Shown here one piece after another: positions 30,809 to 64,000 of a stretch of DNA of 64,000 nucleotides. The stretch is from Cyanophora paradoxa CCMP329 (taxonomy: Eukaryota > Plantae > Glaucophyta): assembly GCA_004431415.1 (NCBI GenBank), contig QPMI01000567.1:6456-70455 (forward strand), read 5' to 3'. The position numbers and the translations under genes were made by a program. The notes below the pieces were generated by a model. The model was given only the letters and a program-made list of their open reading frames with translations, was not told the origin of the DNA and ran no database searches. Position 1 is the stretch's first letter. Every line of letters starts with the position of its first letter.

Positions 30809-30830
30809 GAATATTGGTTATATATAGAGT

Positions 30831-31101: not shown

Positions 31102-31130
31102 GTTTAATTAATTTTTCTAAGGTATTCTTA

Positions 31131-32527: not shown

Positions 32528-32600
32528 ACACATATGAATATTCATATTTTAATCCTGAGGCGGAACGCCGAGGGATTAAAATATGAATATTCATATGTGT
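32528..32600. other. Second copy of the viral terminal hairpin
   Basis: Same sequence as 10670-10742. Confidence 0.9.
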
Positions 32601-32623
32601 ATAGTGTTATAAAATATCCGAAC

Positions 32624-37193: not shown

Positions 37194-38324
37194 TAGCAGA
37201 ACTTCGGAAGCCAACTTAAGCTTGAAGGCCGGGCCTCCTCCGAGTCAGAGGCTCCGACTACCGTGTATTCGGCGTGTAATACTTAATTAGTGCGCCACAA
37301 ATCACTGCCGCAGTGCGCCACTCACGCGGCCGAGTCACTGAGTCCGCGGCGCGGCGGCGCCGCCGCGCCGGCCGTCCGCCGACTCGGCGCCCAGTCGGAC
37401 GCGGTCGATCGGCGGACTCGGCGGCGGATCCCGGACTCCTGGACCCGGAGTCGGCGCCGACGTCGACTCGCGAGTCGCGATCGCCGCCGAGTCGGCGGCG
37501 AGACCGTGAGACTCTGATCATGCATGATGAGAGTCCGGGGCCTCCGGGATCCGGGCGGCTGTCCGGCGCCGCCGCGCCGATGATCGCGATCTCAGCCGAT
37601 TCTCAGGATCTCGGCCCGGGGCCCGGGGCCGGGGCGGCGGGGCCGGGCCGGCGACCGCGGCCCGTCCGAGCCGACTCCGAGGGCCCGTCCGGCGTCCGGT
37701 CGCCCGCCGAATCCGATGATCGCGATCGGCGCCGATGAAAATTAATTAAACTCGGCGTCCCGGCCCGGGTCCCGCCGCCGGCGCCGGGCTGCCGGGCCGA
37801 TCCGGATCGACTTCCGGATTCCGGATCGGACTCCGGGATCCGGTCCATTCGAATTCGAATTCGGAGTCCGGACTCCGGACCCGGGACTCCGGGACCGTCG
37901 GACTCGCGATCGGCCCGGATCGGGGATCGAGGCCGCGGCCGGGCGGATCCTGAATCCTGATGATGTCATCATGATCATCGATATCATGATCATGGCATGA
38001 ATTCTTTTTTATGTGAATAAATGTGCGTATAAAAACCGTATATACGTGCGTATATATATACACGCGTACGCATATATGGCAATATATGCCTTTCCGAGTT
38101 TCCCTTAAGCGCCGGCCGGGCTTGCTCGACGGCCGCATCGATATTGTCGGCGAATATAAATATATATTATAATTTGTCGCCGTCGGCGCCACGGTAGTAA
38201 TCGGTACTGTACCAGCCTGACAGTGTACCCGGGTGATGCGGCACATGATCGTCGCTAGCTTCGCTCCGTTCCGAACTAAGTACTGTAGGAATGCTTTTTT
38301 AGCCGATGTTTTAAATTGCCGTAT

Positions 38325-44300: not shown

Positions 44301-46138
44301 GGCGCCTGAGACCGCGCCATCGCCATGCAGGCGCCCGGACCCCTCCCGCCCCGCCCGCCCCGCCCCGCCCCGCCCGCGCCCTCTGACGGAGCCGCAGGGC
44401 GCGCCCCGCCGCCCCTCCCTGCCCTCGTACACATCCCCGAACTCCTCTTCTCCCTCGTCTCCAGTGCGCCGTACCCCTCCCGAACCCGGCGCGGCGCCTC
44501 GTACCCCGCCCGACGCCGGCGCCGCTCCGGCAGACGTCGACGCGCCGCTGGTGGCCGGCTCGGCGACCTCTTCCACGAGCTCCCCAGCCACGCCAGCGAG
44601 CTCCCCAGCCACGCCAGCAGGCCCGTACCCCCCCCCAACTAGACTCGGCGTACCCCCCTCAACCCGGGCGCGCAGGGCGATGTACAGGGCGCTGCTGGAG
44701 GTGCTGGGGGCCCCGGTACCCCCAGGACATCGGTCAGGCCTGCCTGGCCGCCGCCGTCGTCCTCCCCGAGCCCCCATGGGCGCCCCGCCGGCGCGCCGCT
44801 GGCGCGCTGCAGCGCCGCCGGCCGGCGCCGCCGGGCTGCACGGGCGCCGCCACGGGCCCGCCGGCGCCTCCCAGCAAACACGCTGCTCAACCGTCCGTGC
44901 GAGCTTTCTTCGCCCCGCCCTCCCCCCTCCCCCCTAGCTTGCTTCGTCCGCCGTTTTTTGGAGCGGATCCAACGCTGCCGTTTTTTCGCCCCTCCCCCCC
45001 CTCCCCCTCTGCCGTTTTTTGGAGCGGAACCAACGCTGACGCTGGCCGTGCAGCACGCATCCGCCGGCAAAGAGCTCTGACTGACTGAATTCGACTGGCG
45101 GTGCAGTGGGTTAGACGTTGCTGTAGCTGCAGCAACGGCGGCCGGGAGGCTGATCGCGGTGCCGTCCCTGCCCCGCCCACCCGAGCATGCGCAGCGGCTT
45201 CTGACGGTGCCGCGCCTCTTGGGCCAGGAAGCTGGCGGAAGCCCGGAGCCAGTGACCATCGCTGTTCCAGCCTGGCTAGCGGATCACACGTACGCCCGTA
45301 CCCCTTCCGCGGCATCAATATATAACCCCTCCCCGCTCATTCGCTCCGCACTACAGGCAGGAAGCAGCGAAGCAGAGAGCAGCGCGCGCCCGAGTTCTTC
45401 TGCAGCGACGTCGACCGGCCGAGAGGAAGTCAATTTGATCCGTCATATAGGGGCAGGAAAGCATGTAGAAAGCGTTTCAGGAAGCATTTTTAGATCAGTG
45501 TAGATGCGCTACAATGTCTGAGCAGCGTTTGGTAGTCGGCAACCCGAGAAATTCGGTCTGCCAGCTGCCATACAAACCCAACCACTGGTGGTTGGGAATG
45601 TATGGCAGTTGGCAAGCGAGGGGTACGGGGAAATCCGTGCAAATCGGGCGAGAATTGTGTTAATTTACGACAAAATTACGACATAAAATAGACCGAATTA
45701 CCTAATTTTGGGGGGAAGAAACACGAAAATTGCGCTATTTTATCGAAATTCCGGCTCCCACCCCCCGATCAAAATCCCCACCGTGTGGCACCAAATTAAA
45801 ATATTGAGCACGAAATTGGCCACTTCCTAGCGCAAGCTCTAGGTCGCCGGGCCGGCGCTCCTCGCCCAGGGCGCGTACAGACTCCGCGCATGTTCCAACG
45901 CCTTCATAGACATATATATAAGATAGAGCACCCCTGTGAAACTTCAGAATCCGGGTTCTCAATAGTAGGCGGGCCTTAGCGCGAAATTGCCTAGGGGCGG
46001 CATCGAACCCGGGTTGTTCCATTCCAACAGAATTCTTGAAGTTCGGGTACCTTTAGCTGGACTTAACAATAGGAAGCTAGCGACTCCGTGACGGGCCGGA
46101 GGTTCCTAGCGAGCTTAGCTGGGTTTATGAGAAGGCTC
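38325..46138. repeat. 2.6-kb tandem array, block 2 (3 units)
   Basis: Anchors at 40633, 43241 and 45844; ends exactly after the 295-bp segment, at GAAGGCTC. Confidence 0.95.
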
Positions 46139-46500
46139 ATTGCCGAGAGGCCGAATTCGGCAATTTAGAGCCGCGGCAATTCTCAGGGGGTAGGGCTAAA
46201 AGGCCGCTTTTGTATGGCGCCATCGAAGAAATCCAGAATATCGGCAATTTATCGCCACGGCAATTCTGGTTTTGGTCGAAATCGGCAATTTAACTACGCG
46301 GCAATTTAAGCATTCCTACAGTAGTTCGACTCCTAGCGAATTACTAGGAGCACCATCGTATATACGTAGAGGTTTGCTTGAAGGCCCGGCCACAGGGCCA
46401 CAGCTGCAGGCTGCAGCCTGCAGCTCGCGGCAGGCGCCGGCAGCTGCAGCCTCGCGCGCGTATATACAGTAAATTAAAGTTGACTCATCGATCAGTGAAG

Positions 46501-46533
46501 TTATTATTATTATTATTATTATTATTATATTAT
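46501..46533. repeat. (TTA)n microsatellite
   Basis: Direct reading. Confidence 0.95.
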
Positions 46534-47178
46534 AAACCGATCAGTGGAGTCCGTGAGCTCCCAGGCGGGCCAAGCGGCCTCCGCCCGGGCGACCTCGACG
46601 ACCTAGCTCGCCCTCCCGGTGCGCCCCCCCCCCGCGGCGGCGGCGCGGCCCGCCCCCGCGCGTAACAGTCCGGCGCCCGGGGAAAAAAGCGCGGCGGGCG
46701 GGATGCAGGGGCACCGTGGAGCATGATGCGAGTCCTGCCGCCGTCGCGGCGCGGCGACTCCCAGATGTCGCCGACCATCTTCTCGAGCACGTCCTTGCGC
46801 TCGGGGCCGGAGGAGACGACGTGGTGGTCGACGAACCGCTTGTTCTGGGGCGGCTTGCGCTTCTCCTGCAGCTGCGTCACCTCCAGCCCCGTCGCTTCCG
46901 CCCACGCCTGGAACTGCTCCAGAGTCACGTTCGGAATCTGCGCGACCTGCGGACGCACGTCAGCGGGCGCAGCGCGCGCGGGCGTGACGAGGCGAGCGGA
47001 CCTGGAGACCGCTCATCGCGTTCACGCGGACGACCCGGTTGCGCAGCAGCTTCGCCATGCACTCCGAGAGGCGGACGTCGCTCGGTGTCGGATGAGAGGA
47101 TTCCCACCCGGTGCAGCGTCCGTGCGGTCACGCACGGGCTGGGGCTGTAGCTGGGAGCACAAGTGGTCTATTCACAAG

Positions 47179-47836
47179 TGTACCCGTCCAGGGATCGCGT
47201 ACCCCCAAACGGAGTCGCGCCCGGCGCTAAGTCAGAATACAGAGAGTGCTAGAGCTAGCTGCTCGATAGCACTAGACTAGGGCTAGCGGCTACGCATAGA
47301 CTGCCGGCTAGCCTAATCCGAGGGAATCGCGGCACGCGACAACTCCTCACTCTGCATACGGTGCGTCCTCGCACCGGACCGCGCCAAGCCGAACGTCGAG
47401 TCTGCATGCTCGACGGGGCGTCCACCCCACCGCCGGGGTGTGCACCAACCACGGCAGCGACAGGGCGGCGGCGAGTGAACTCCTCTCGAAGTAGAATGTC
47501 CGTCGTCAGCAACCAGATATGCCAGGTAGCATAGCTCGCGACCGAAATAGGAGCCGATACCAGCATAGTGCATGTACCTAGGCAACCCCAGGCCAAGCTC
47601 GAAAGATGGAAAAGCATAGAACTCGAAACCCCCAAAAGCTGGCCCAAACTCGCTCCAACGGCGAGAGCCGAAGGAGAGTGGCACGGATGGGAAGTTTCAC
47701 CGCCTCGGGAAGAAACCAGCGAGGAGGTATCCGGGCCGCCCATCAGGCCCAACGAAAGGATAGGGCACGACTGAGTGCACCCCCAGCCAGCAACCTCGAG
47801 CCCCTCACGGACCCGCAGGCACCCGGGAGGCCTACA
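47179..47836 (-). repeat. Candidate 3' LTR (~660 bp)
   Basis: TGTA...TACA ends with an imperfect terminal IR (TGTAcccgTCCaGGG vs TGTAggccTCCcGGG); adjacent purine-rich tract; ~200 bp past the integrase stop. No partner LTR available to confirm. Confidence 0.6.
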
Positions 47837-47852
47837 CCCAGCCACTCTCCAC
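47837..47852 (-). promoter_or_regulatory. Candidate polypurine tract
   Basis: Minus-strand TGGAGAGTGGCTGGG lies immediately 5' of TGTA. Confidence 0.5.
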
Positions 47853-48030
47853 GAGCGACGGGCCCAGATCCCAGAAAATGGAACGAAAGGCCCAGATGGC
47901 GCCCCGTGATTGGCCACCAGCCAACCCACGTCCCACCTCGGAAGCCAGGGCTGAGGCAAAGCGGGCAAAGAAATCTGCCCCACGGCGCAAGCACAGCGAT
48001 CGCAAAGGGAACAGCAATGGGACGAGCTTC

Positions 48031-49691
48031 TCACAGGTCGTCGACCAAAATCGCGTCATCCATCCCAACCTCGTCGCCCTCGGCAGCCCGCTCGGGGCCC
48101 TCGGCGTCGACGTCAGGGGCGAGAGGTGGATTTTGTTCTTGAGCGGGCGAGTCCGCGAGTGCGGGGTCGATCGCCGGCTCGTCGGCGTTCACAGCAGTCT
48201 TCCGAGGCCGACCAACGCGGGGACGGGCTTGAGACTCGGAGAGACGCGTGCGGAACGGAAGCATGCAGTCGATGTGGGCAACAGTCTCACGCAGAGGACG
48301 GGTACGGGCATCGTCCTTGGCGGAGTAGGGCTTAGCCGACCCCTTGACCGTGTAGGTGTAACCGCCAGGGTTAACACCAGTCACAGTGTAGGGCCCGACC
48401 CACGAATTGTACAGCCCTTTGTTGTGTTCGCCCATCCAGCACAATACCTTGTCGCCAACCTCAAAGCGGCGACGATGAGGCGGGTTGCCGGTGCGAGCAA
48501 CCATGCGGTTCCGATAGAACCGACGGTACTCGCGCGAGGCAGCGTCGGCGCTCGCGGCAGCTCGCGTCATCGCGAGAAGGTAATCAGCCGGGTGCGTGTG
48601 GTCGGGGTTCACGAAGCGGACGCCGGCTCCGAAGCGCACTTCGCAGGGCAGGTGCACTTCAGAACCGCGGTGCAAGACCATCGGGAGAACCCGGTGGCGG
48701 AGTGCACGGTGGTCCGCAACGCGAGAACGATATCGGCGTTGTAAAGAGGCCAGTCAGAGAGCGGCCGCTTGTGCTCACGGCACATGGCGTAAGCGAGAGT
48801 CTTGTAGACTCCGCCCAGGCGCTCGGCGCCGCCGTTCGAGGCGTGGTGGTAGGCGGCCGCGTGCACGAACCGGGTACCCTTCTCCTTGAAGAACGCGTTC
48901 CACGCGCCCCCAACGAGTTGGGACCCGCGGTCCGTCAGGATGCGCGCGGGCACGCCCTCGTGCGTATAGAAGTCGATCGCGGTGGCGAGCAAGGCCTCGC
49001 CGGAGATACGGGAGAGCGGGTAGATATAGCAGAACTTGGTGTATGCGTCGACGTACGCGATGATGTATCGCGAACCGTCTTCGTGCATATCCAAGTGGAA
49101 GATATCCACCTGCCACAGGTCTCCCTTGCCCGAAGGCTGTATCACCTGAATGGCGGTACGGCGGGGCTTCGCGGCCTTCGCGAACTGACAGTGCGGGCAC
49201 GACCGCACAAAGCGAGCGATGGAGGCGTACATGCCAGGCCACCAGAACCGCAGGGCGATCCGACGGGCTATCACGGGCGCGCCTCGATGGGCCCAGCCCT
49301 CGTGATAGGCGTAGAGCACCCTGTCGATCCAAGCGTCCGGCAAGACGGGTAGGAACCGGCCGGCAGGGACCAAGGGGTTGCGCTCGATGACGCCGTCGTC
49401 GGCCAGGCTGAACTCGCCGGCCAGGCGTGCAAAGCGCTCCTTGGCCCGCAGGCAGTGAGCGCAGCTGGGCGAGCAGGGATCTGCGTCGCGCCTCGAGCCG
49501 CGGGTACAGACAGTTGGATTCTCGCCCTCTGCGTGGAAGGCGAGAAGCTTCTTGCAGAAGGAATCCTCCTTCTGAGCGGCGAGCAGACGCTTGCGCTTCT
49601 CGGGCGGGAACATACGGCGCAGCGCGTCGGGGAGCGCCCCATCGACGGCTGGCGAGGGTCCGCAGGCCCACGCGTCGAGGACGGTATCCAC
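48031..49691 (-). CDS. pol: Integrase (HHCC, DDE core, GPY/F C-terminus); one frameshift near 48685
   Basis: YHEGWAHRG...FWWPGM...CPHCQ; WQVDIFH; ILTDRGSQ; SNGGAER; FEVGDKVL...WVGPYTV. Confidence 0.95.
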
Positions 49692-50989
49692 GAAGACCGG
49701 CTTGCACGGCGGGCGAACGTCCCGGCCTCTAGGGTCGAGTTCTACCCACCGCTGCGGGGCAGCGGCCTCGGCGGCGACCGTCTCAGGCTCGAGCGGGGCG
49801 GCGTCGTCGGAAGCCTGCCCGCGGGCAGAGGGGCGACCTCGAGCCCGCGGCGCTGGCTTGGGGTCCGGGGGACCGGCCGAACGCGGATCTGGTGGCGAGC
49901 AGTCTCCGGGGAGAGCGAGCGTCGGCGCGGAGGCCCGGGAGGCGGCTCGCCCTCAGGGTCCTCCGGCTCCCACTCAATATGAATCGGCACCGGCCGATCC
50001 GAGGGGTCGACCGGGGAGCGCCAGTGGCGCGTGTTGTACTCATCTCGAGGCTGCCGCCTCAAGGCGGGGCCGCGAGGGAAGAGCGCGTCGGGATGCAGGG
50101 GCCGCGGCTCGGCAAATCCCTTGGCGCCCCACCGACGGGGCCCGGTTTCCGAGCGCTTCGGGACTCGCTCCGCAAGAGCGAGGGGAAGCCGTCAGCGTCG
50201 CAGGCGTCGGAGGGGACAGGCCCTTCCGGCAGCGACTCGTCATCGATCTCGCCCGAGGCCTCGGCCTCTGCGTGAGCGTCCTCTAGCAGCGCGGCCGGGG
50301 CGCCCAGGTCGCCCTCAGGGGCGTCGGGCATCTCCGCGTCCGAGGGAGCCTCGCGCTCCTCGACAGCGGGCGCCGGGCCCGGCTCTCGTCGTTTCGGGGG
50401 CGGCGAGACCGACTCTGGCGCGGGAGGCGCGAAGCGCTCTGGGGCGGCCCGCGCTCGCTTGCGCGTGGCGGCGTCAGTAGCCGAGGCGGAGGCCTTGGCC
50501 TCAGCGAACCCAGCCGACGCAGCAAGCTTGGCGAGCTCGCGGGGCAGGCGTCGCGGCGCGCGCTCTGGCGGCGGGGGCTCGGCGTCGGAATCGGTTTCCG
50601 CAGCACCGCCAGCCTCACCCTCAGGCTCGGGCGCGGGCGCTTCAGGGGCGCCGGCGTCGGGCTCGGCCTCAGGAGCACTGGCTGGCACAGGGGCCGCGAC
50701 TCCTCCTCTGCATAAGAGGAGCGGCCCGGCGGGGAAGAGGGGGCGCTCGCAGGCGCCGCCGGGGCGCTCGGCGTCTAGCGGCTCGGCCACCCTCGGCTGG
50801 GGCTTCCGCGCGGAAGCCGGCGGAGTTGGCGAGCTGGCGCAGGGCCCGCTCGGTCGGGCCCAGCTGCATCCTAAAGATGCCCAGCGGGACGTCGGGATCC
50901 TCAGGCTCAGCCCCTACAGCATGTTGCGGGATGCCGAAGCCTTCGGCGCCCTTGTAGGCCGCGGGCTTGGACGAGGAACCGTCTGCACC

Positions 50990-51480
50990 GCCTGGCTGCC
51001 AGACGGGGTGGTCCTTAGGGAGACGCGAGCACGCGTCGGGACCCCCGTTCTGCTTGCCAGGGCGGTAGACGATCTCAAAGTCGTAGGCCTGCAAGAGCAG
51101 GGACCAGCGACCGAGGCGGCCCGTCGTCGGGTCCAGCGTCTTCAGCCACTGGAGGCGTGGTGGTCGGTCCGCACCAGGAACTGGGGGCCGCCCAGCAGAT
51201 AGTGGCGCCAATACTTAATGGCCCAGACTACTGCGAGGCACTCCAGCTCCGTAGCGGAGTAGTTCATCTCGGCCGGCAGCAGCGTGCGGCTGATGAACGC
51301 GAGCGGCCGCTCGACGCCTTTGTCGTCGGCCTGGCTCAGAATTGCGCCGATAGCGTAGGTGCTGGCGTCCGTCTGGAGAATGAAGGGCTTCGAGAAGTCC
51401 GGGAACCGCAATATAATATCGCGGCCCAGGAGTTCTTTCAGCTCCTTAAAGGCGCGGTCGGCGGGCCGTCCTCTGGCCAA
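50990..51480 (-). CDS. pol: RNase H domain (frameshifted)
   Basis: FPDFSKPFILQTDASTYAIGAILSQ...NYSATELECLAVVWA...VRTDH; RLGRWSLLLQAYDFEIVYRPGKQN..PDACSR. Confidence 0.95.
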
Positions 51481-52330
51481 CTCCAGACGGCGTCCTTCAA
51501 TAGAAGGCGCTGCATGGCGTGCACCACTTTGGAGAAGTTCTCGACAAAGCGGCGGTAGTAGCCGGCGAGGCCGAGGAACGAGCGGAGCTCGTCCGCGTTC
51601 TTCGGCGTCTGCCAGTCCGTGATCACCTTGGTCTTCGCAGGGTCCTGGCGGATCCCTTCGGCGGAGATGCGGTGGCCGAGAAGGTCGATTTCAGGCACGC
51701 AGAAGCGGCACTTCGACGGCTTCAGGCGCAGGTTCGCCTTAGAGATCGTCTCGAAGAGCGCCTTCAAGTCTAGAAGGTGCTGATCGATGGACGGTGAGAA
51801 GACCGTGATATCGTCGATGTACGCGACGACGCAGGTGGTCAGCAAGGGGCCCAGGATCGCAGTGATCGCGCGGGAGAATGCCGCGGGCCCGTTCGTGACC
51901 CCAAACGGCGTAACCTTCCACTGAAAGTGACCCCAGGGACCACAAATGCAGTGTAGGCTCGGGAGCCGGGGTGCAGAGGCAGCTGCCAGAAGCCGGCAGT
52001 CGCGTCAGCAGTCGAGAAGACCATCGAGCCGCGGAGGCGCTCGAGCTGGTCGTCTATGCGGGGTAGGGGAAACACGTCCCGCTCGGTGATCTGATTCAGC
52101 CTCCGATAGTCGACACAGAAACGCCAAGTGCCGTCCTTTTTGGGGCCAGCACTACCGGCGAGCCATATGCCGCTTGGGAGGGCTCGATCAGCCCAAGCTC
52201 AAGGAGTTTCTGAATTTCCTTGCGGGCGTGTTCCTCGGCGTGCGGGTTCATACGCCGCGGAGGCGTGAACACCGGAAGGCGAGTCGTGAGTTTGATCACG
52301 TGCTCGTAATAGAGCAGGTTGCTGGTGCCC
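51481..52330 (-). CDS. pol: Reverse transcriptase domain (frameshifted)
   Basis: IEPSQAAYGSPVVL; FPLPRIDDQL; FSTADATAGFWQL; VAYIDDITVFS; KCRF; LLGHRIS; LRSFLGLAGYYRRFV. Confidence 0.95.
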
Positions 52331-53499
52331 TCTTTGGCCTCGACCTTGTCTGCGAAGACATCCTTGTAGCGCCGCAGGAGCGCGTGAAGTTCGGCTTTCT
52401 GCGCCGTCGTGATTGACGGGTGAGAGCCGAGCTCAGGAATCTTCTTCAGCAGCTCTTGCCACTCCTCCTCTGCATTAGGCACCGGCCGCGGTGCCTCAGC
52501 GGGCTTCGCGTCGGGTGCTGCAGTCGTAGGGGTGGGGCATCGGGCCGGGCCGAAAGCGAGGCTGTGACCACACTCTGGGGTGGGGCCTCGGCGTCGGCGA
52601 CCGGTGCGGCCTTGCGGACCGTAACGTCGCCGCGCATGGCGCGGACTGCATCGAGCAAGTCGCGCTCCGCTTTTTCGGAGAGACCGGGAAGGTCGAGCGC
52701 AGGGTGGCGTCTCTGGGGACGGACACTGCCTCGACTGCGGCGACGAACTCGTCGACCGAGGGCCTGTGATCGGGGCCGGCGTTGGGGACGCGCTTCGTGA
52801 CGACGTGCTCATAGCATCGTCGTCGAGGCTAATGATGCTCATAGCATCAAGGTCCTGCAACGGCCGGTCGGCTGTGTCGAAGGGCAGCTCGCCAAACGTG
52901 ACGACTATATCGTCGACGTCGTAGGCGGTGCGCGGGGTGGGTCGGCGGGCTCAGCAGGCGCTGCGCTAGACAGAGCGCGCTGCTTTTCCGCCTCATCTAC
53001 GACAGAACGTAGGGTGGAGATTATTTTCTCAACGTCTTTGGCGGGCTCATATGCCGCGCCAAGCATGCGTGCTTTTCTATTAAAGTGGCGGAGTCCAGTG
53101 CGGCGTTTGGCAGGCACGATTCGCAGCCGGCGAATCAAGAGGTCTGTCAATGCACTCGCACTACAAGGCATTTGCTCAGGTTCGTACTCAAAATCACCAG
53201 GCGGTAGGGCGACCGCCGAAGCGACCGCTACTACCGATCCTAGCGGCAGGGTTACCGGCTGCCGGCCAGGATTGCACAACCGCACGTGAAACATTTTGTC
53301 TCCCGGGTGATTATGCAGCTGGTAAGGGCAGAGTACGCCCAAGGCTTGCGGGGACTCCGGCGACGGCTCGACGTAGAGGTGCGGCAACTCACGCGTTGCC
53401 GGGCCCTGCCCATTGAGCGTGCATGGGACGAGGGCCTCTCCGACGGGGAGCTTTACTGGTCCCAGGACTCGGACCAGGATCCCAAGCTGGTCCGGAGCC

Positions 53500-53930
53500 G
53501 AAAAGGACGACGACTTCGCGGTGCAGGTGGTCACGGGCCCGGAGGCACCACCCGGACAGCGTCGTGTCGATCTGGCCGTGGACGGCCTGGATCGCGTCCA
53601 GGCCGAGCAGAATGTCCGGCTCAACGCCCATGGCGCCGCGCGGGACGACGAAGACGCGGCGGCAGAAGCGGAGCGAGCCCAGAACGAAGACTACGTCGGC
53701 GCGGCGACAACGAATTTTGTCCCGGTCCATGAAACCGCGGACTATCGTGTGGCCCTCGACGTAATTGACTTCGTCGGGCGGCAGGCGGTCGAGGACTTCC
53801 TGGGGAACTACAGTTCCCTGGGCGCCCGTGTCGACAACAATGCGAGCGGGCCGTTCAGCGCCGGAGCGGCCGTTCGGCAGGCGCATAGCAATGCTGCCGT
53901 GAATGTGCAGTGTCTTTGGCCGGAAGAATT
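53500..53930 (-). CDS. pol: Retropepsin-type aspartic protease
   Basis: IVVDTGAQGTVV catalytic motif and DILLGLDAI. Confidence 0.9.
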
Positions 53931-54290
53931 CCAGGGCCCGGTCGCGCGGGAAGCTAGGTCGGGCGCGGCGGACGTGGAATTCTGGTTCCGGCGGCGCGGG
54001 TGGACCCGACAGGTCCGTTGCGCTTGCGGTTGGGATGGGGCCGGGACTGGCGAGCCGCGGCTCGCTCGGCGACTCGGCGCTGCTCTGCCTGGTCGGCCAA
54101 CGGCGAGGGCTTGGTCCGCTTGCGCGGGCCCGGGCCGTGGCGGTTGGCGTAGAGCAACTCGTCGCTGGGCGGGTCATAGCCGGCGCGCGTTCCCAGCGGC
54201 GTCTCCTCTGCCGGGCGGGGCACGGCGAGGGACGGGCGGTTTTTGGAGCCCAGGGCGTGGCCCGCGGCATGAGAGCTTCCTCGTCGGAGG

Positions 54291-55724
54291 TCAGGCCTCG
54301 GGGTAAATGATCGCGGCGGCCTCGAGCGCGTTCTGCGGGGCGAACGCCGCTGTCGGCGCTGAACCCGAGAACCACGCGCGAGTCGGCCGTGGCGGGGCCT
54401 TGTAGCCCGTTTTGCGCATCGAGATGCCGTAGCGGTCCATGATCGCCTGATGCACCGCGCGTAAGGCGGGCTCCAGGGTCTTTGGATCGACCTGCAGCAT
54501 TTGCGCGGGTTCGACAGCCAGTTGAAGACCAGCACGGTCGAGCGCGGCCCGAGCTTGTGCAGCAGGCGGCGGGCCCAGGCCGGCGCAGGCTCGCGGCTCT
54601 TTGGTGGGGCCGGGCGGGCGGCGCGGCTGGCGCCGCGGCGCGACTGTTTGAGCGGGCGGCTCGTGGACGACCGTCTGGACGCGGCGGATCGAGATGTACT
54701 TCTCGTCCGCCGGCACCGGCACAGCGGCCCGGACCGACGCCGGCGTATGCAAGTGGGCGGGAAGGTCACAGGGCGCGCGGGCCTCGTGCCCGCGGGGTGA
54801 CGACGCTTCTGCGACGGTGTATACCGCGAAGAAGGGCTTTGGGTTGGCTTTTGCCGCGGCCTGCATTGCCACGCGAGCCTCGTGCTGGCGCTCGCGCTCA
54901 AGCAAGGCTCGCCAGTCTTTGGTGCGATCGAGCGTGGCCCGCAGAGCCTCGAGATCGGCACGGGGCCCGTCTGGGAGGAGCGAGATCATCATGCCCGTCT
55001 CCCCAGCGGAGAGGCTGATCTGCATATCGATGCCGGCCCGGAGGGCGCGGCAGACGTCTTCCAGGGCCCGCCGAGCGGCCTGCTTTGCCTGGGCGAAGGC
55101 TTCGTCTGAGACCTTCTGAGCGCCGCCGGGCTTGGCGCGCGTCTCGGCGTGGCTAGCGGCGGTGCGGATCTGGCGCTCGACTGTTTGAAGCCAAAGCCCC
55201 AATTCCGTGACCCCTTGGCCCCGGATCTTCACGTCGCGGCAGCTCGAGCACTCGCGCACAAACTGCAGGAGGCCCCCTGCTGGGACGTCAGCCTGGGGGT
55301 TGAAAGTCGTGGCGGCGGAGGCGCGCGGCGCGGCCACTGAGGCGCGCGGCTGCTCCGGCGTCGACTGGTCTGCGCGCGGCGGCTCGGCCTGGCTCGCACG
55401 CGATGACCGCTCCTGGGCCTGAGAGATGGAGGCGCGACCCTCCGCAGGCTTGGACGGCGCCGCCGACTGCGGACCGGCCTCGCTCTGCCCCTCAGGCCCC
55501 TCTAGAAAGGGCTGCTGGCGCTCGTTGCGTCCGCCCGTCGGCGGCTGCCCACCCGATGGTGGCGCGGCGGCGCGGGCCGAGGACGACGCGGACTGAGCGT
55601 CCATCTGGTTCTGGAGCTTGATCAGGACCAGCGCGGTGGCCTGCTCAGCTCGCGCGGACGCCGAGAGCGAGTCTGGCATCTCAGCGTACTGCGCCTTCCA
55701 GACCATGTCGAAGAGCTCGCGCAA
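54291..55724 (-). CDS. Possible gag capsid-like segment of the polyprotein
   Basis: Lies upstream of the protease; helical segment KIRGQGVTELGLWLQTVERQI weakly resembles gag F.G.....WL..E motifs. Confidence 0.4.
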   Translation of the reverse strand: MRELFDMVWKAQYAEMPDSLSASARAEQATALVLIKLQNQMDAQSASSSARAAAPPSGGQPPTGGRNERQQPFLEGPEGQSEAGPQSAAPSKPAEGRASISQAQERSSRASQAEPPRADQSTPEQPRASVAAPRASAATTFNPQADVPAGGLLQFVRECSSCRDVKIRGQGVTELGLWLQTVERQIRTAASHAETRAKPGGAQKVSDEAFAQAKQAARRALEDVCRALRAGIDMQISLSAGETGMMISLLPDGPRADLEALRATLDRTKDWRALLERERQHEARVAMQAAAKANPKPFFAVYTVAEASSPRGHEARAPCDLPAHLHTPASVRAAVPVPADEKYISIRRVQTVVHEPPAQTVAPRRQPRRPPGPTKEPRACAGLGPPPAAQARAALDRAGLQLAVEPAQMLQVDPKTLEPALRAVHQAIMDRYGISMRKTGYKAPPRPTRAWFSGSAPTAAFAPQNALEAAAIIYPEA

Positions 55725-58700
55725 TGTGGGCGGGCAGCCTCGCAGGCGGGCGTCGTTCTCGTGCCGCTTGTACGCAGCGTCTACGGCGCCGCGCGGCGGG
55801 TCCGGCGGGCGGCGAGAGGACTGGCTGCTGCGAGGGCTGCGGCGGTCTCGCGGCGAGGCGCGGTCGCGCGAGCCCTTCTTCGAGCTTTTGCGCCGCTTAT
55901 CGTCATGGCGGGGCTCCGGCTCGGGCTCCGATCGCGCGAGCGCGAGCGGGAGCTAGAGCGGGACGGTGTTCGGCTCCGGCGGCGTTCCCGCGAGCCTCGG
56001 CGAGGGCTCCGCCTGTCGCGAGTGTCGCGAGCCGTGGACCGTCGGCTCGGCGGGCTGCGGTCGCGGCGCGGCGGCGAGCGATCACGGCGGTCCGGGGAGC
56101 GGCGGCGGGAGGCCTCGCGGTCCCGGCGGTCCGGCGAAGGGCGTCGGAGCCTCGCGATCGCGGCGTTCCAACGAACGGCGGGACGGCGGCGGCGCCCGGG
56201 ATTGCCGGTGGGGCTCCGGGAGCGCTCGCGGCGCGTGGAGGGGCCCCGCGTCTCGCGCCTGTCTGGGGTGCGAGAGCGGCGACTGGACGGGGCTCGGCGC
56301 GGCTCGGGTGTGCGCGAGCGGCGCTGAGACGAGGCCCGCTCAGGGGTCCGGCGGGCCTGCGACGCGCGACTGGCCGTGTCGTCCCTGCGGCTCGAGCTTG
56401 CCTCGGCCTGGCGGCTCGAGCTGGGCGCGGCATCAAGGTCCGGGAGGGAGTCTCAGCCGGCGGGGCTTGGTCTGGCGGAGCGCTCTCGGCGATCCGCTCG
56501 ACCTTCACCTTCCCGTCCGAGACGGTTACGCGCATGGTCTTGGGGTCATACCCCTGCTGCCGCGCGAGGAACGCATCCAGCCCGAACGGGTCGTTCGGGT
56601 CGACAGCGGGTTGTGCGGGTTGCGCCTGGCCACCGCCGCGGTCGCCGCCACGGTCACGGTGGCCTCGGCCGTCGCGACCGCGGTGCCGGCCGCCCCGCTG
56701 GTGACCCTGCCCGCGGCCGCCTCGGCCAACGGCCTGGCCCGCGTTGCGCCGGGCCGCGCCTGCTGCGGCGCCGTCGGCGGCGCGGCGGTCTGCGCAGCGG
56801 CCTGCGCCGGCGCGGGCGCCGACGGGGTGGCGGATGGCGCCGCCTCGGCGGGGTCGTCCGCGAGCCCGCCGACGATGGTTGAGGGCGGCTGGAACCGCAC
56901 GCCCGCCCACGTCGCGCGGACCGCTCCTTCGTAGATCGGCTGGTACGGCGTGCGAACCAGAAGGCTTTCGGCCTCCTTATCGACAGCCGCCGTCGCAGTC
57001 AGGCTGCGCCGGGCCGAGGGCGCGGCGCCCTTGTTCTGGACCGCGTCCCACATCAGCGCCGGGCGCAGAGCCTCAACGTCCCAGTCGGGAGCACGGGTCG
57101 TCCGTCTCCCAGTCGATCGGGCGCGCGAGGCGGATCGCGACATTCAGATCGGCGTAGAGCGAACGGAGCATCGTCTCGAACTGAGGCCGCAGGGGTATAG
57201 CCTCATCGGTAAAGATGAGCCCCAGCGGGAAGTTCCCGGGACAGTTCTCCAGCTCCTCGGCGGCGCGGGCGGCCTCGAGGTGGCGCTGTATCCCACTCTT
57301 GCCCCGGCGCCAAGGTCATCGCCGGCGGGCCACGCGTCCTCGGCGCCGGCCATCGGGGGCGAGCCGAGCTCAAGACGCTGGTACCCGAGACCGTGCGGCA
57401 TGTTTGTGAGGTACGCGCGGATGCCGTCCGCCAGCGCGCGGGCATCCGAGTCGGCGCACTCATCCCTCGTCATAGTGCGCAAGAGGGCCCTGAAGACCTC
57501 GGCCACGTTCTGGGGCATGGCGGCGTTCAGGGCGCACAGTTGTCCACCCGCTGCGCGAGCAGCGGGATGCGGGGATACTGGAAGCCTGCAGCATCGCGAG
57601 CAGGATCCGCCCACAGATCGCCGCACGACCCTCGTGGTCCGGCACGACCGCATTGTTCGGGCCAAACTTCCACGCAAGCGTGGGATGACCGTCCGGTACG
57701 TCGGCCTCGCGTCCGCGTCGAAGACCTTCTTGCCCTGAGGCAAGACGTCGGACCCGCGGTCCGGCTTGGCCGTCGGCTTAGTCAGGAAGGCCTCGTGAAT
57801 GAACACCATCAGACCGTCCGGCACCACGCAGCGGAACGAGTTCAACACCTTGTTGAAGTCATCCATGTGATCGGCGACCGCCCGAGCGATCTCGGGGACG
57901 TAGTCAGCCGGGCGTTCCGACTCGACGTCCATGGCCGCAGCCGACAGAAAGTCATCAGCCCAGTGCTGGCTGCGGAGGTGCTTGCCCGGCGCGTGACGCT
58001 GGAAGAAGCGCGCGTGCCAGGCCAGCGTAAAACCGATGGCCGTCGCGAGGATTTCCTCTTCCGCCGGGATCGGCGCCCAAGGGCACGTCCCGGAGGTGAG
58101 TTCGGGAAAGGCGGCAGCTCGTAACCGAACGCGGTGACGAGCCGCGGGTTCGCGTGGCTCTTCTTGGGCTGGCTCGCAAGCTGGGCGACCGTCACTGCGA
58201 GCCACAGCTTCTTGTTCTCGCGCTGGTGCGGCGCGCCCCCTGCGACGTCCTTGTCGCAGGCAGCGTTCGGCGCGGGCGTGGCCGTGCCTGCCACGAGGCG
58301 GGGCGCGTAGATGCGCCGCGTCTGCAGGCGACCCTCAACGTTCTCGACGCGCTTGTCGGCGAGCGGGCGCAGCAGGGCCAGCACGGCGACGTCGCGCGCG
58401 AAGCGGGTCGCGAACGGCGTCCTGGCGTCCTCCTCGTTCGGGTCGGCGATGTTACCGCCCAAGACTGAGGTGTGCAGGGTGGGGCGCTCGGGGTGCGGCA
58501 TGTACGGCGGCGGGGCGTTCCGCGCGCCGCCGCCTTCGTGGAAGAAGGCGGTATACAGCACCCGCGAGACCTGGCCAGGGTCGAACACACGGGTGCGTGG
58601 GCTGTGCCCTCGTGCGTGAGATCCCAGGCGCCCGTGTACGTCGGGACGGCAGACTGTGCGGTACGGGTCCCGACCGCGAGGTACTGCACGATATCCAAGC

Positions 58701-61700
58701 TGACGCCGCAGGCGGCGTGCGGGAATGCAAGCCCCTGCAGGTCGAAGAGCTCCGGATCCTCGTCGAACGGCCGCTGAGGCGGGCCTACGAGCGAGAACCA
58801 GTTCACTATGCCGCGCGCGCGGGGCCGACGCGCTTGAGCATAGTTGAGCACAGCTCGCCCATGTGCTGGTCCTGCAGCGTGAGCACGTCGACGTTGTACT
58901 CGTCAACGTCGCCGGCGTGCTGCCAGCGCAAGGGGTAGCTGATCGCGGGCAGCGTTGCCCATTCAGTGAACCCTGGCTCATAGCATTCCAGGGCCGGAAA
59001 AACGCGTGTTTCCGGTCCATGTACTCGCGCAAGAGCTTGTGATCGTTGGCGTACGTCGGGTCCGCCAACGAGAACAGCGGCCGCGGCTGCCAGTCCTTGT
59101 GCGGCTCGAACGGCCTGTGCGCCGCCGCAGGGATGGCAGCCGGCGCCTCTTCCTTCTCGCCCTCTTCCTCTTCGCTCTCGACATGGTCAATGTCGAGCGG
59201 CTCGAGGCGGGGCTCAGGCTCATCGGCGATGTAGGTGCCCACAAGCGCATCGTCGAACGTGAACGACTGCCGTGCAGCGTGACGCTCGAGGGCATGCAAG
59301 ACCTTCTCCTGGAAGGCCGCGCGCTGGGCGGTCAGGGCCAAGCCCTGTGCGGGTCGCTCTCGGCGGCTTCCTCCTGCGCGCGCGTCCTAGCTGCAGGTGG
59401 CGGCGCAGCCAGCGAACCCCGTACGGAACTCCAGGCCGGCGCGTTCCGCGGAGGGAACGGTGGTCCCAACCGCCTCGGCGCGGAACATGGTGTGAGCACG
59501 CAAGAGGTACTGGGCCCACTGCGGCGGGATGACGGCCGCGCTCGGTTGAAGCGGCCCCCGTGCGTCCACCGCGGCAGGCGCGTGGCAGGGATCGTCCAAC
59601 GCAGAGTCAGGAAGTGCTCCAACTGCTGCTCCGTCCACTCATGCAGGTGGAACGGGAGATCGTGGGAGTGGGGCGTGACGGGGCCACGGAGCCCCAGCGC
59701 GATCATGAAGAGCTCGAACGCGGCCGCGTTGAGCCGCGCGAGGCGAACGGTGCGATCGGCTCTGAGCGCGACGCGGCCCTCCGGCGGCTCCTCGTGCGGC
59801 ACGGGCGGCCCATCCAGGCGGTTCTGGATTGGCGTGCTCCTCTCGCTGGCGAGAAACGCCTTGAGGTGCGGGACCCGCAGGTCCTCGAACGTGCCCTTCA
59901 GTGCGTCGAAGGGGATGCTCCAGCGGTGGGCGAGATCAGACCGGGCCGTCATGGGCCACTCGGTGATCTGTTTCCCCTCACAGAGCCGAGGCGGGCACCC
60001 CGGCACTGCGAGGACGCCGCTCATCACGCCCATAGCCTCGTACAGGGCCCGCTGGCTCAGGTTCTCATCGATAGCCGACGGCGGCGGCGGCGGCGGCGCT
60101 TCCTCGGGCGCCTCATCGCCGTCGCCCGCTCGCCCATCTCGGCGTCTTCCCCTCAGCCTGCCCACGGCGGGCGCTGCGGGTTCGTGGCCCCTGCGAGCCG
60201 CGCCCACGGGTGCTGACGCGCACGACCCCGTCCCGCGGCCACGCTCGCCGCGACGGCGGCCTGCCGGGGAGCCGGCGCGGTCGCGCGCGCGACGTCGAGT
60301 AGCGGCTCGCTCAGGCGAGGCTCGACAGGCGCGGCTCAGTGGCGGGCGGCGTCGGAGCGGCGGTGGGCCGCGGCGCCATCGGGCTCGCAGCGGCGGCCAT
60401 GTTGCCGCGGCGTGCAAGGTCACGAGCTTCGCCGTCGGTGCAGGCGGCGGGACAGGAACGGGCGCCGGCCGCGCCGGCGCTGGCGGTCCCTCGGCGAGAG
60501 CGCCTTCACAGGCGGGCGCGGCGGCAGGCAGGCCTTAGCCTCCTTGATCGTCGCGCTGACGGCCTTCGCCGTGTAGGCGCCCGTCGTGTCCGACGCCGGC
60601 TTCGGCGTGGTGGGCAGGTCGTGGAGAGGAGTGGGGTGCGGCTGCCCGCATCCGTGCGCCACTTCTCCACGAGCGCGATCATGTCCTTGACAGCCTCGTC
60701 ATTGAAACCGGCCCGCTTCTTCAGCAGCCTACGGAATAGAATGACGAGGTGGGCCCGGTCGCCCGCCTTGGCCCCTCGATGTACCGGAGCAGCTCCGCGG
60801 CCCCGGCGGATCCGGGAACCGTGCGGGCCCAGGCTGCATCGCACAGGGCGGTGAGCGGCGGGCGCGGGCCGAGCTGGCTCAGCACGTAGAGCTCCTCAGG
60901 CACGATCGTGGGCAGCTGCCCGCCTCGCGTCGTGCCGTGCAGGGGCAACTGCGTGGTGCGCGTGATCGGGCGCACGCGGCCGACCCTCCACGTGCCAGGC
61001 TCTGCCCCGTGCAGGCGCGGCCAGTGCAGCCAGTGTCGCACAAGTGCAGGTCCCGGAGGTGCAGAACGCGGGCGGCGGCGACGCGGGGCTCCACCGGAAC
61101 GCGTTCAACCGTGCGGGACTCGCCCTCGCTCACGACCGGGAAGGCGGGGGCACGGCCGTCGCGGTACGCAGTCAGACGCTCCGCGAGCGCTGCCCGCAGC
61201 CATCCCTCGGCGTCCGATCCGAGCGGAGACGTGCCCGCCCCGGGATCGGAACCTCAACGGAGGCAGCCAGGACGGCAAGCGAGTGAACGGCTTCCGTGAA
61301 CTCCGAGTCCGAGGGGACAAGAGGGTTCCCGTCGGCCAGGGCAACGGCGCTCTTGTGGGCGTCGTGGGGACCGGCGCGGCCGCCGATGCAAGCCACGGTC
61401 TTCCACTGGATCGCGTGCTCGAGGGCCAGCAGGGCGAAGCCATAGGCGTCGACCCGCGCGTCCACATGAGCGGCTCGGCGAACTTAAAGAAGCGGCGAGG
61501 ATCTTCTCGACGGCGCCGGCGGTGCCCGGGGCACCGTAGTCGACGCGGTGCAGGAAATAGCCCGCAACAGTCGAGGCGCACGCAAGGCGGAGGCGTCCTG
61601 TGCGGCAACAGCTCGCTCAGCTCGATTAGCTGCGGCGGCCCGACACTGTCATCTCGTGCGGCTCGAGAGAGGCCGCCACGGCGAGTGCTGGCCAATGCTC

Positions 61701-62900
61701 CAGTGGCGGCGGTATGGCTCCAGCCAGCCGGCGGTAGCGACGCACTCGTCCCAAGCTTCGTAAGCTTGTGGGCGTCGGGCTCGACTGCGGGGCGACCCTC
61801 GGGCGTGAGGCCCTCGCGTGCGGCCACGCGTGGCCCCCGGCCCACTTCGCGGCGACGCGAGAGGCCTGTGCGTGAGGCTCATGATTTCATAATAGTGCGT
61901 CGGCCAGGCGTGAGCCAGCGTGTCCTGGGACAGCGGGTCATGCCCCAGCATCTGCAGGAACGCAGTGGGGAGGGTCCGCGAGCCGAGGTACGTGCTCTCG
62001 GTGGCGAGCGGCTGAGAGAACGCCGCAAGCAAGAAGGAGAGCGTCTGGCGGGTGCGGGCCGGGCAGCGGAACGCAGTGGCATACCACTGCTCGTCCCGGA
62101 CCTCGATCAGCCCTCGCTCACAGTGCAGCCGCAGTGAGTCTCGCACGGCGCTGGGTACAGGAACGCCGCGCGGTCGAGCGGACCGACGCGGCGCCCTTCA
62201 GCTTGTGCGCGTCCACGTTCCAGAGAGGAACGGGCCCCAGCTCGTGCTCGCGGCCCTTCACCGGCTCTAACTCAACGGCTCCGAAGTGAGTGAGGTCTAG
62301 GCCGGGGCTAGCGCTGAGGAGGCGAGCGCGGTTGAGGCGCAGGGTCTCCTTAGACGCTACGTCGCGTCCTCGTCGGCGAGGGAGGCGCCGTCGTCGGTCA
62401 CCTCGAGGCTCGCTACCGTCTCGGCCCCGAGGAGTACCCAGGCAGCAGCCCACGCCGGCGGCGGGGTCCGCCGGAGCCTCGGCGGCGGCGGTCTCGGGAC
62501 CGACTTGGTGGAGCGAGCTCCGTCGCGGGCTCGGGACCCTTCGCTTCTGCGTCAGCGCCCTCGACCTCCGTTGGGTCCGGGCGCCGCCAAGAGGAGTGCG
62601 ACCTCCTCAAGGGCGGCGTCCACGATGCCGGCGGCGAGCTCGGCGGGAAAGAAGTCGGCACGGGCGTCGGCGCGGGACCCTTCGCTGCTGCGTCAGCGCC
62701 CTCGACCTCCGTTGGGTCCGGGCGGCCGCCAAGAGGAGTGCGATTCCTCGAGGGCGGCGTCCACTGCGTCGAACGCGACCTTCTTCTCCCCCTCGTCCAG
62801 GCCCGACTCCGGCGGGTCGGCAACAGGTCCTGCGCCTCGCAGGGGGCCGGCCTCTCGGCTCCCGTGGGCACAGGTCTGGGCGGCTTTCCCCGGACAGCTG
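55725..62900 (-). CDS. Long frameshift-fragmented coding region of unknown function (RS-rich tract, acidic tracts, several globular-looking segments)
   Basis: Protein-like stretches chain across minus-strand ORFs 56526-57143, 57144-58205, 57842-59341, 58192-58851, 59332-60423, 61172-61465, 61649-62146 and 62118-62453 by single frame switches; no intron-like AT-rich gaps. Confidence 0.6.
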
Positions 62901-62902
62901 CA

Positions 62903-64000
62903 CTACTGCGATCGCGAAAGCGTGGCGGCTGCGGCGACCGCGTTGAGAGCGGGGCGTCCCGGGGTCCTGCAGCGCGGCGGCGTGCGCCGCGGCCGCTGCG
63001 TGAAGGCTCGGAAGTATCGTCGACCAACGCCTCGTCGCTGCGCACGATGCGCACACGGTACACGTGCTTTTCCTTGCCAAGCTCGCGGGCGCCGGGCCGC
63101 CGTGGGCCCCGACCGTGGCCGCGGTCGCGCGGAAGCAGTGCAGTCGCGGACGGGCGGCGGCGCCGCTTCGGCAGCCTGCTCGAGCATGGCGGCGCGATCG
63201 TGAAGGCGTTGGGTCAGCCCAGGGCGCCGGCGTCGCGGGCGGCACGGGCGGGCTGCAGCGGCGGCGGCGTGTTCTGCAAGCGCGCGGCGGACCGCGGCCT
63301 CGAGCGTCTGCGCCTGGGCCGGGCAGGACGCGGCCAGGTGGCCGGTTTTGCCGCAGTTGTAGCACGCCCGGGGCCCTGCAGCTTGCTGGGGCGGGGGGCT
63401 CGAGCGGCCGTTCCCACCCTGCGGCGCGGGGTAAACCGCGCTTCGGGTCACCGGTGCCTGCGCCCGTTGGCCGCGGCGCTTGGCCGGGTTGATTGCCGAC
63501 CACTCGGGCAGAGGCCGCGGTTGGTCCGGCACTCAAACGAGTAGTGCGACTCGCCGCAGTGGCACGGCCGCCGGGGCTTCTCGGGGAGACCCCGGGCCTT
63601 CAGGAAGTCTTTGATCTTCTGCTGATAGACCGGGTCGTCAAGGCGGCCGGGGCGGCGGTGCGGACGCCGACGGGTAGAGCGCGCGGACTACGACGAGGGG
63701 CTCGTCCGAGCAATGAGCTGCAGGAACGAGATGACCTCGGCGTTCTGATCCTCGGCGTCGTCCGCGTCCCACCCGTACGCGTTTGCCTCAAGCTCTGCGA
63801 TCTCGGCTTCCGACACCGTCGTCGCGAGCATGATGCGCGTGCCCGCGCCGGCGCCCGCGTTCGAGCGCGAGGGGACGACGGGACAGCTGGCGTGTGCGTG
63901 ATCGGCGGCGCGCTCTGCGGCGTGCGCGAGGCAGCCGTGGGCGCCTGCAGCGGCGTCCGCGCGAGCCCAGCCTAGGGCCGAGCCGGGGACTTTGGAGATA
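62903..64000 (-). CDS. Gag-like region with zinc knuckles (5'-partial)
   Basis: CYNCGKTGHLAASC (CX2CX4HX4C) at ~63320-63365; manual translation gives CHCGESHYSFEC (CXCX3HX4C) at ~63530-63565. Confidence 0.75.

What the first reader, a model, noticed from the sequence alone, without database searches (positions are those of the whole stretch)
47179..64000. Candidate giant Ty3/gypsy retroelement with ~10 kb of extra coding sequence upstream of the protease
Seen: no copy of the candidate LTR within 16 kb upstream; minus-strand protein-like sequence runs without introns from beyond 64000 to the protease; the zinc knuckles lie ~9.4 kb before PR rather than next to it. If the frame switches are consensus errors, the polyprotein could exceed 5000 aa, with ~3000 aa of unrecognised domains. 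Known precedents for oversized gypsy elements are plant Ogre and planarian Burro, but I do not recognise these domains.
Basis: partly seen in the sequence, partly recalled or inferred. Interest (0 to 1): 0.8.

Follow-up and report, generated by a model that had tools for sequence, protein, structure and literature searches.

The report
Giant algal retrotransposon frameshifting after protease
A jumping gene over 17 kb long, present in many copies in the alga Cyanophora paradoxa, carries about 3,000 amino acids of unrecognised protein between its zinc knuckle and its protease, and likely makes its copying enzymes only when ribosomes slip back one base just after the protease.

Summary
Real, but two frames rather than one. 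The minus strand holds one oversized Ty3/gypsy element of Cyanophora paradoxa. Most frame switches are single-base assembly deletions. Ten other contigs carry the same order, extra domains then RT, in neighbouring gene models, so it is not a nested element or host gene. ORF1 (about 3,840 aa, 299 beyond the window) is Gag, zinc knuckle, about 3,190 aa of orphan sequence, protease. One switch is genuine: in 4 of 4 short-read runs ORF1 stops 15 codons after the protease end and RT-RNase H-integrase (about 1,830 aa) lies in the -1 frame, behind C_CCU_UUU, a 6-nt spacer and an 8-bp stem, in 153 nt where a diverged sister family shows no change. A -1 ribosomal frameshift is likely, unmeasured. The extra domains match nothing outside Cyanophora; folding failed. 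Related Cyanophora families are also oversized. The 5' LTR, PBS and TSD are untested. The layout has a precedent (planarian Burro); the scan earlier noted another giant family in this genome and post-protease frameshifts in two other genomes. New variant of a known kind.

The parts
47174..47178 (+).
   Evidence: sequence; untested
47179..47341 (-). Candidate 3' LTR, about 163 bp, TGT...ACA ends
   Evidence: follows the only purine run + TG in 47179-48030; contig depth at 47628 equals the interior, so a longer LTR reaching 47628 is unlikely; no second LTR seen
47343..47353 (-). Candidate polypurine tract (10 of 11 purines)
47354..48030 (-). 3' untranslated region
   Evidence: between the ORF2 stop and the candidate PPT
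48031..53504 (-). ORF2, about 1,830 aa once 13 single-base deletions are allowed for: linker-RT-RNase H-long linker-integrase; -1 frame relative to ORF1
48382..49304 (-). Integrase: HHCC, D-D-35-E, GPY motif; no chromodomain hit
   Evidence: Pfam; motif positions
49600..51000 (-). Low-complexity RNase H-integrase linker, about 450 aa
51154..51462 (-). RNase H (D, E, D present)
51468..52275 (-). Reverse transcriptase, YIDD within 51824-51804
52932..53492 (-). First part of ORF2, conserved among Cyanophora families; dUTPase-like only by position (no Pfam hit)
   Evidence: label recalled from the Burro description
53362..53514 (-). Invariant 153-nt island: predicted -1 frameshift signal
   Evidence: one shared contig piece with 0 other letters; 14 listed differences in 53515-53560 and 5 of 30 letters in 53332-53361 in diverged contigs
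53501..53506 (-). Slippery heptamer C_CCU_UUU (one base absent from the window, present in 4 of 4 runs)
53470..53494 (-). 8-bp Watson-Crick stem with 9-nt loop, 6 nt after the heptamer; loop could pair with 53429-53424 (predicted pseudoknot)
53453..53455 (-). ORF1 stop (TAA), 15 codons after the slip site
   Evidence: same end in models P0009 and P0010
53453..64000 (-). ORF1 (open at the right edge), about 3,840 aa including 299 aa beyond the window
53507..53860 (-). Aspartyl protease, DTG within 53838-53815
54030..55790 (-). Orphan region D (mixed ordered and low-complexity)
   Evidence: no hit
55930..56450 (-). Arg/Ser-rich low-complexity tract
56880..59095 (-). Orphan region C, about 740 aa, 43-55% identical to the sister family
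59237..60072 (-). Orphan region B, about 270 aa, 48% identical to the sister family
60644..62351 (-). Orphan region A, about 575 aa, 51-56% identical to the sister family
62528..62764 (-). Two 97-nt repeats (94%) coding Ala-rich peptide repeats
63323..63364 (-). Canonical CCHC zinc knuckle
   Evidence: Pfam E 2.4e-7
63529..63564 (-). Atypical Cys/His knuckle, kept in the sister family

Best explanation
This is one multi-copy, oversized Ty3/gypsy LTR retrotransposon of Cyanophora paradoxa with two overlapping frames, whose RT, RNase H and integrase are likely made only by a -1 ribosomal frameshift just after the protease. Shown: ORF1 = N-terminal region, zinc knuckle, about 3,190 aa of orphan sequence (regions A-D and low-complexity spacers), protease; ORF2 = linker, RT, RNase H, integrase in the -1 frame. 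Inferred: most ribosomes would stop after the protease and give a ~3,840-aa polyprotein; a minority would slip at C_CCU_UUU against a downstream stem or pseudoknot and give ~5,650 aa. The protease would then cut out A-D as separate proteins made at the same level as Gag and well above RT. I take these to be accessory proteins that act in or around the particle or against host silencing (about 35% for that role; no fold or activity was found). The N-terminal 300 aa are Gag by position only.
For: Domain order and catalytic residues. Short-read contigs restore the frames across the extra region. Models of other copies: P0008 (3,082 aa) runs N-terminus to region D and the next two gene numbers give PR and RT-IN; P0028/P0009/P0159 do the same for a diverged subfamily. 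Of 17 contigs with family-1 extra-domain models, 10 have an RT model at neighbouring gene numbers in the expected order; 2 of 2 sister-family contigs with extras do too. Junction: one inserted base and no other indel in 53360-53600 in 4 of 4 runs; no change listed in 53362-53514 although a diverged family differs at 14 listed sites in the next 46 nt. P0009 and P0010 end at the same stop. Pro-Phe-Arg closes the protease in three RT lineages. An 8-bp stem 4-9 nt downstream occurs at 24 of 2,275 sampled positions, and none of the 3 other canonical heptamers has one. C_CCU_UUU is the West Nile virus -1 site (PMC11797035, passages); a structure 5-8 nt downstream is typical (PMC12789967, passages).
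Against: No frameshift was measured. The stem is not unusually stable for this GC content: z -0.97 (41 nt), 0.24 (71 nt), -1.25 (101 nt), -2.19 (139 nt). Back-translation of the most distant family allows the same stem (control 6 of 204) but its -1 frame match is not significant (42 of 300 shuffles or worse). A pyrimidine run plus CAG at 53487 could be a splice acceptor. Invariance in the sister family is read from contig structure, not from its full DNA. One sister-family model (P0042) joins residues 1-438 straight to RT: a deleted copy or a modelling artefact. The capsid fold was not detected. 7 of the 17 contigs showed no adjacent RT model among my hits. Stretches 60995-61344, 62576-62751 and 54722-54868 are bridged by gene models only.
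Confidence: 0.76

Rival explanations
1. Same giant element, but ORF2 is reached by splicing (as in Ogre) or from its own transcript rather than by ribosomal slippage.
For: Pyrimidine run and CAG at 53487; several GT sites upstream would give the right frame. Ogre joins GAG-PROT to RT-RH-INT by an intron (PMC6317226, passages).
Against: The invariant sequence lies mostly downstream of the putative acceptor; the frames overlap instead of being 170-270 bp apart; the in-frame donors are weak GT sites and would cut the protease end; predicted introns differ from model to model.
Confidence: 0.11
2. The element is real but regions A-D are captured cargo or filler with no role in transposition.
For: No motif, fold or homolog found; much of the region is low complexity; other families carry dissimilar extras; P0042 may be a copy without them.
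Against: Open frames with Pol-like codon bias kept colinear at 43-55% identity between families whose RT-RNase H is 94-99% identical; borderline similarity of B and C to a third family (z 3-6, but one unrelated pair reached 5.6).
Confidence: 0.07
3. One continuous >5,000-aa ORF as in Burro; the junction shift is an error or a shared inactivating mutation.
For: About 95 other shifts in the element are errors; Burro has a single ORF (PMC6431247, section 7).
Against: Short-read contigs of 4 of 4 runs keep the shift, in both families; two other copies' models stop at the same TAA.
Confidence: 0.03
4. 56-64 kb is a nested element or host gene and pol belongs to an ordinary-sized element.
For: No 5' LTR in view; P0042 joins the N-terminus to RT.
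Against: Colinear copies on ten other contigs, single models spanning the joins (P0008, P0009, P0162), even contig depth across 48-64 kb, same layout in the sister family and in the 4,924-aa model P0166.
Confidence: 0.03

Closest known systems
Burro / GYPSM1 giant gypsy-like elements of planarians (PMC6431247, section 7 read in full)
   Same: N-terminal Gag with CCHC knuckles, then thousands of residues of extra domains in frame before PR, then a linker, RT, RH, IN; polyprotein near 5,000 aa.
   Different: Burro is described as one ORF of 4,873-5,140 aa with named domains (MATH, BIR, ankyrin, BCL2, SUMO-like, env) and over 30 kb; here two frames, no named domain, no clear membrane segment, about 17 kb coding, a candidate LTR of only about 163 bp.
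[quoted passage not shown]
   Same: Break between protease and RT, so Gag and PR can be made in excess of RT.
   Different: Ogre ORFs are about 274 bp apart and joined by splicing; Ogre's size comes from long LTRs and separate extra ORFs. Here the ORFs overlap around a slippery heptamer and the extras are inside ORF1.
Retroviral pro-pol -1 frameshift (MMTV, HTLV, MPMV; PMC12789967, passages); alpharetroviral Gag-PR / Pol (recalled, no call)
   Same: X_XXY_YYZ heptamer and downstream structure just before the protease frame's stop.
   Different: Those viruses also shift between gag and pro (alpharetroviruses do not, recalled); none has a multi-thousand-residue insert; this is a retrotransposon with no env detected.
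West Nile virus -1 site C_CCU_UUU (PMC11797035, passages)
   Same: Same heptamer with a downstream stem or pseudoknot.
   Different: Unrelated virus; only shows that the heptamer can work.
Giant Cyanophora gypsy family with ubiquitin-like tails (earlier scan note e1-10595186)
   Same: Same genome, same RT branch if it is the family of P0187/P0064, extra sequence before PR.
   Different: RT about 58% identical; LRLRGG-type motifs occur in P0187 but in none of this family's models or minus-strand frames; extras not alignable.

Membership tests
Ty3/gypsy (Metaviridae) | Order PR-RT-RH-IN | tested here: met
Ty3/gypsy (Metaviridae) | Catalytic residues DTG, YxDD, RNase H D/E/D, HHCC and D-D-35-E | tested here: met
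   best PDB match of the Pol part is Ty3 Gag-Pol
Ty3/gypsy (Metaviridae) | Gag with CCHC nucleocapsid | tested here: met
   zf-CCHC
Ty3/gypsy (Metaviridae) | Capsid fold in Gag | tested here: inconclusive
   no Pfam hit; hhalign to a 15-sequence gag profile gave 0.3% probability for residues 1-310
Ty3/gypsy (Metaviridae) | Two LTRs, PBS and target-site duplication | not testable with these tools
   5' end lies beyond 64000; no genome held
Ty3/gypsy (Metaviridae) | PPT before a TG...CA 3' LTR | tested here: inconclusive
   one candidate, not checked against a second LTR
Ty3/gypsy (Metaviridae) | RT groups with a named gypsy clade | tested here: inconclusive
   28 Cyanophora rows form one long branch (SH-aLRT 100); link to plant elements only 83; quick tree, 92 of 120 hits, no outgroup
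Chromovirus | Chromodomain after integrase | tested here: not met
   no chromodomain family at E up to 1 in 48034-48684; ORF2 ends there
Burro-type giant gypsy | Extra domains in frame between zinc knuckle and PR | tested here: met
Burro-type giant gypsy | Single Gag-to-IN ORF | tested here: not met
Burro-type giant gypsy | MATH, BIR, ankyrin, BCL2, SUMO-like, env domains | tested here: inconclusive
   no Pfam hit; no HHpred library; models too poor
Burro-type giant gypsy | RT related to Burro RT | not tested
   no Burro sequence was among the hits by name
Ogre/Tat | [quoted passage not shown] | tested here: met
Ogre/Tat | ORFs apart by a spliced spacer of about 270 bp | tested here: not met
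   ORFs overlap by 15 codons; splicing itself could not be tested
-1 programmed ribosomal frameshift | X_XXY_YYZ heptamer in the zero frame with the next ORF at -1 | tested here: met
-1 programmed ribosomal frameshift | Stimulatory structure 5-8 nt downstream | tested here: inconclusive
   8-bp stem at 6 nt, background about 1%, folding z only -1 to -2.2
-1 programmed ribosomal frameshift | Measured transframe product | not testable with these tools
   needs a reporter, ribosome profiling or peptides

The most novel reading that the evidence does not exclude
Cyanophora harbours its own lineage of giant reverse-transcribing elements in which the frameshift sits after the protease so that 1,500-2,000 residues of fast-evolving orphan protein are made in capsid amounts; these are new folds that build an unusual particle or disarm host silencing, a non-env accessory module with no counterpart in described retroelements.
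Probability: 0.25. Interest if true: 0.8.

Novelty: new variant of a known kind. Interest (0 to 1): 0.6.

Why it matters
It extends giant multi-domain gypsy elements from planarians to a glaucophyte, as a whole branch of at least six families rather than one oddity. The frameshift position predicts that the orphan domains are abundant products while RT and integrase are scarce, which gives a direct handle on what oversized elements use their cargo for. The 153-nt signal is small and testable in a reporter. It also shows that dozens of 'hypothetical' Cyanophora gene models are fragments of these elements, with false introns placed over assembly deletions and over the real frameshift.

Tried and rejected
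No genome was held, so the 5' LTR, PBS and TSD could not be sought. Extra domains: nothing in Pfam, PHROGs, NCBIfam, PADLOC, PDB sequences with single proteins or 2-3-family profiles, phage records, viral, metagenome and prokaryote contigs. HMMER on 1.84 billion representatives with P0002 gave 16 hits, the 10 looked up plus P0002 and P0004 all Cyanophora, 4 short near-identical hits not looked up. The ESM Atlas could not be used. AlphaFold2 with shallow alignments failed: mean pLDDT 29 for B+C and 38 for A; fold searches on them gave nothing usable, which is no evidence of a new fold. Ideas dropped: a kinase-like lobe in A and an HExxxH-like motif in C (recalled resemblances; not kept in the third family's alignment); region D as a second capsid; internal duplication among regions; a Kelch-like match (E 0.078); recent recombination as the cause of the 97% RT identity (Pol linkers are only about 55-75% identical). 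No RNA holder listed. Metagenome RT relatives were ordinary, at most 44% identical. Rfam and tRNA scans found nothing; a bacterial promoter scan was irrelevant. Models P0001 and P0020 share the window's own frame breaks and were set aside as possibly not independent. The careful tree did not finish; the quick tree is quoted. Gao et al. 2003 on recoding in LTR elements was not held.
Full report
What is there. The minus strand of 47179-64000 carries zf-CCHC, aspartyl protease, RT, RNase H and integrase in gypsy order with all catalytic residues. A codon-model path crosses the whole stretch without a stop but with many frame switches, nearly all of one sign.

The switches are mostly assembly deletions. 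Twenty of 24 listed runs hold 78% of the sampled words. Laying four of them gave 103 indel rows; the 12 shown are all single bases put in. I compared by hand the length excess of the listed contig pieces with the frame changes read from other copies' gene models: +29 over 54868-60995 (one contig), +16 over 61344-62576, +22 over 62751-63619, +8 over 53486-54722, and +13 through Pol; each fits one open frame. Three short stretches (60995-61344, 62576-62751, 54722-54868) are bridged by models only. One contig runs 981 nt past 64000, and models P0008, P0028, P0029 add 299 residues there. ORF1 comes to about 3,840 aa, of which about 3,190 lie between the knuckle and the protease.

It is one element. 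P0008 runs from the N-terminus through regions A, B, C, the Arg/Ser tract and D; the next two gene numbers on that contig give the protease and RT-integrase. A subfamily 86-93% identical does the same in three consecutive models (P0028, P0009, P0159). Of 17 contigs with family-1 extra-domain models, 10 have an RT model at neighbouring gene numbers in the right order; for 7 I saw none among my hits. Gene numbers show adjacency, not distance. A sister family keeps the layout with 42% identity in the first 310 residues and 43-56% in A, B, C, while RT-RNase H is 94-99% identical and the Pol linkers about 55-75%. One sister-family model, P0042, joins residues 1-438 directly to RT; it may be a deleted copy. 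Regions A-D have Pol-like third-position GC.

One switch is real. Models P0009 and P0010 end 15 codons after the protease's closing Val-Pro-Phe at a TAA (53455-53453), while the sequence conserved among families continues in another frame. In 53360-53600, 4 of 4 runs show one inserted base and no other indel. With it the site reads C_CCU_UUU in the ORF1 frame and ORF2 lies at -1. Six bases on is an 8-bp Watson-Crick stem with a 9-nt loop; the loop could pair with 53429-53424 to give an H-type pseudoknot. Such a stem follows about 1% of positions (24 of 2,275) and none of the 3 other canonical heptamers, but its folding energy is unremarkable (z -0.97 to -2.19, and +0.24 for one window). The stronger sign is conservation: a diverged contig whose changes match sister-family model P0043 differs at 14 listed sites in 53515-53560, another at 5 of 30 letters left of 53362, yet no difference is listed in 53362-53514, where all branches merge into one piece whose depth matches their sum (1,999 against 2,010 in X1). 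Pro-Phe-Arg also closes the protease in two more distant lineages (P0166/P0167/P0171 and P0070/P0073/P0182/P0186), and none of the models that span PR to RT reads straight through the junction as far as I inspected them. Back-translation of the farthest family allows the same stem (control 6 of 204), but its -1 frame similarity was not significant. The same heptamer drives -1 shifting in West Nile virus (PMC11797035, passages).

How it likely works. Full-length RNA would give mostly a ~3,840-aa Gag-extras-protease chain and, by slippage, a minority ~5,650-aa chain that adds RT, RNase H and integrase. The protease would release the extras in Gag-like amounts. That, their open frames and their fast divergence relative to RT suggest accessory proteins in the particle or acting on the host; repeats in this alga are CpG-methylated and methylated genes mostly silent (PMC12344493, passages), so counter-silencing is one candidate. 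This last step is speculation: no search or fold identified them (see Tried and rejected). Rivals are splicing at a possible acceptor at 53487, functionless cargo, a single ORF, and nesting.

The family in context. In a quick RT-RNase H tree of 92 of 120 hits (28 left out for covering under 330 columns), the 28 Cyanophora rows (26 labelled plus P0067 and P0072) form one branch, SH-aLRT 100, length 0.7, with at least six families; its tie to plant elements is weak (83). Other families are oversized too: P0166 is a 4,924-aa model with about 2,450 aa between knuckle and protease, P0186 has at least 1,870 aa before the protease, P0187 about 800 aa with LRLRGG-type motifs. Similarity of their extras to this family is borderline (B and C of P0166, z 3-6, with one unrelated pair at 5.6) or absent.

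Ends. The only purine run followed by TG in the 3' region is at 47353-47343, giving a candidate LTR of about 163 bp ending at 47179; depth at 47628 equals the interior. Nothing tests this against a 5' LTR.

What is known. Burro elements already show Gag, large in-frame extras, protease and Pol in a ~5,000-aa ORF (PMC6431247, section 7 read whole). Some plant groups split GAG-PROT from RT-RH-INT, Ogre by an intron (PMC6317226, passages). Retroviruses such as MMTV shift -1 between pro and pol (PMC12789967, passages). A frameshifting review gave no passage on a post-protease shift in retrotransposons under my terms (PMC5009743, passages). The Cyanophora genome paper gives LTRs as 1.77% of the genome and has no occurrence of 'gypsy' or 'retrotranspos' in its main text (PMC6704402, passages; supplements not seen). 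Paper searches listed no description of these elements; PMC6338049, PMC5006619 and 10.64898/2026.05.21.726589 were seen as passages only and add nothing specific. Repbase and most subscription papers were not searchable. Earlier scan notes report another giant family in this genome and post-protease shifts in two other genomes; they are unchecked AI notes.

Verdict. A real giant gypsy element, a new variant of a known kind: Burro-like layout, orphan cargo, and a likely -1 frameshift after the protease shared by a Cyanophora-specific branch. Interest 0.6.

Noticed in passing
window 1-9700: AT-rich (37-40% GC) intronless block with a patatin-like ORF, a 1,970-aa ORF ending in a Peptidase_S74 chaperone (fibre-like) and an AdoMet decarboxylase: looks like an inserted DNA virus.
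   Followed up: no
window 7073-16477 and 28939-38324: 9.4-kb direct duplication, 99.8% identical; real segmental repeat or assembly artefact.
   Followed up: no
window 19822-28930 and 38325-46138: Tandem arrays of a 2.6-kb GC-rich unit, 98-99% identical, no Rfam or tRNA hit; a 44-nt imperfect inverted repeat links 38278-38321 with 46283-46326, whose ends are very high-copy in the runs.
   Followed up: no
window 17383-18850: Tandem array of a ~143-nt GC-rich unit.
   Followed up: no
window 46330-47178: Flank of the element: a broken minus-strand ORF ending in a (TAA)n-like tail at 46494-46538, no Pfam hit, apparently multi-copy by contig depth; perhaps another mobile element into which the gypsy inserted.
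   Followed up: partly
window 49600-51000: RNase H-integrase linker of about 450 low-complexity residues, long in all Cyanophora families seen.
   Followed up: partly
proteins P0166, P0186, P0182, P0187: Three more oversized Cyanophora gypsy families with their own unrecognised extras; P0166 has a weak LEM-domain hit (E 0.07).
   Followed up: partly
protein P0042: Sister-family model with the N-terminal region joined straight to RT, lacking knuckle, extras and protease: possible non-autonomous derivative.
   Followed up: partly
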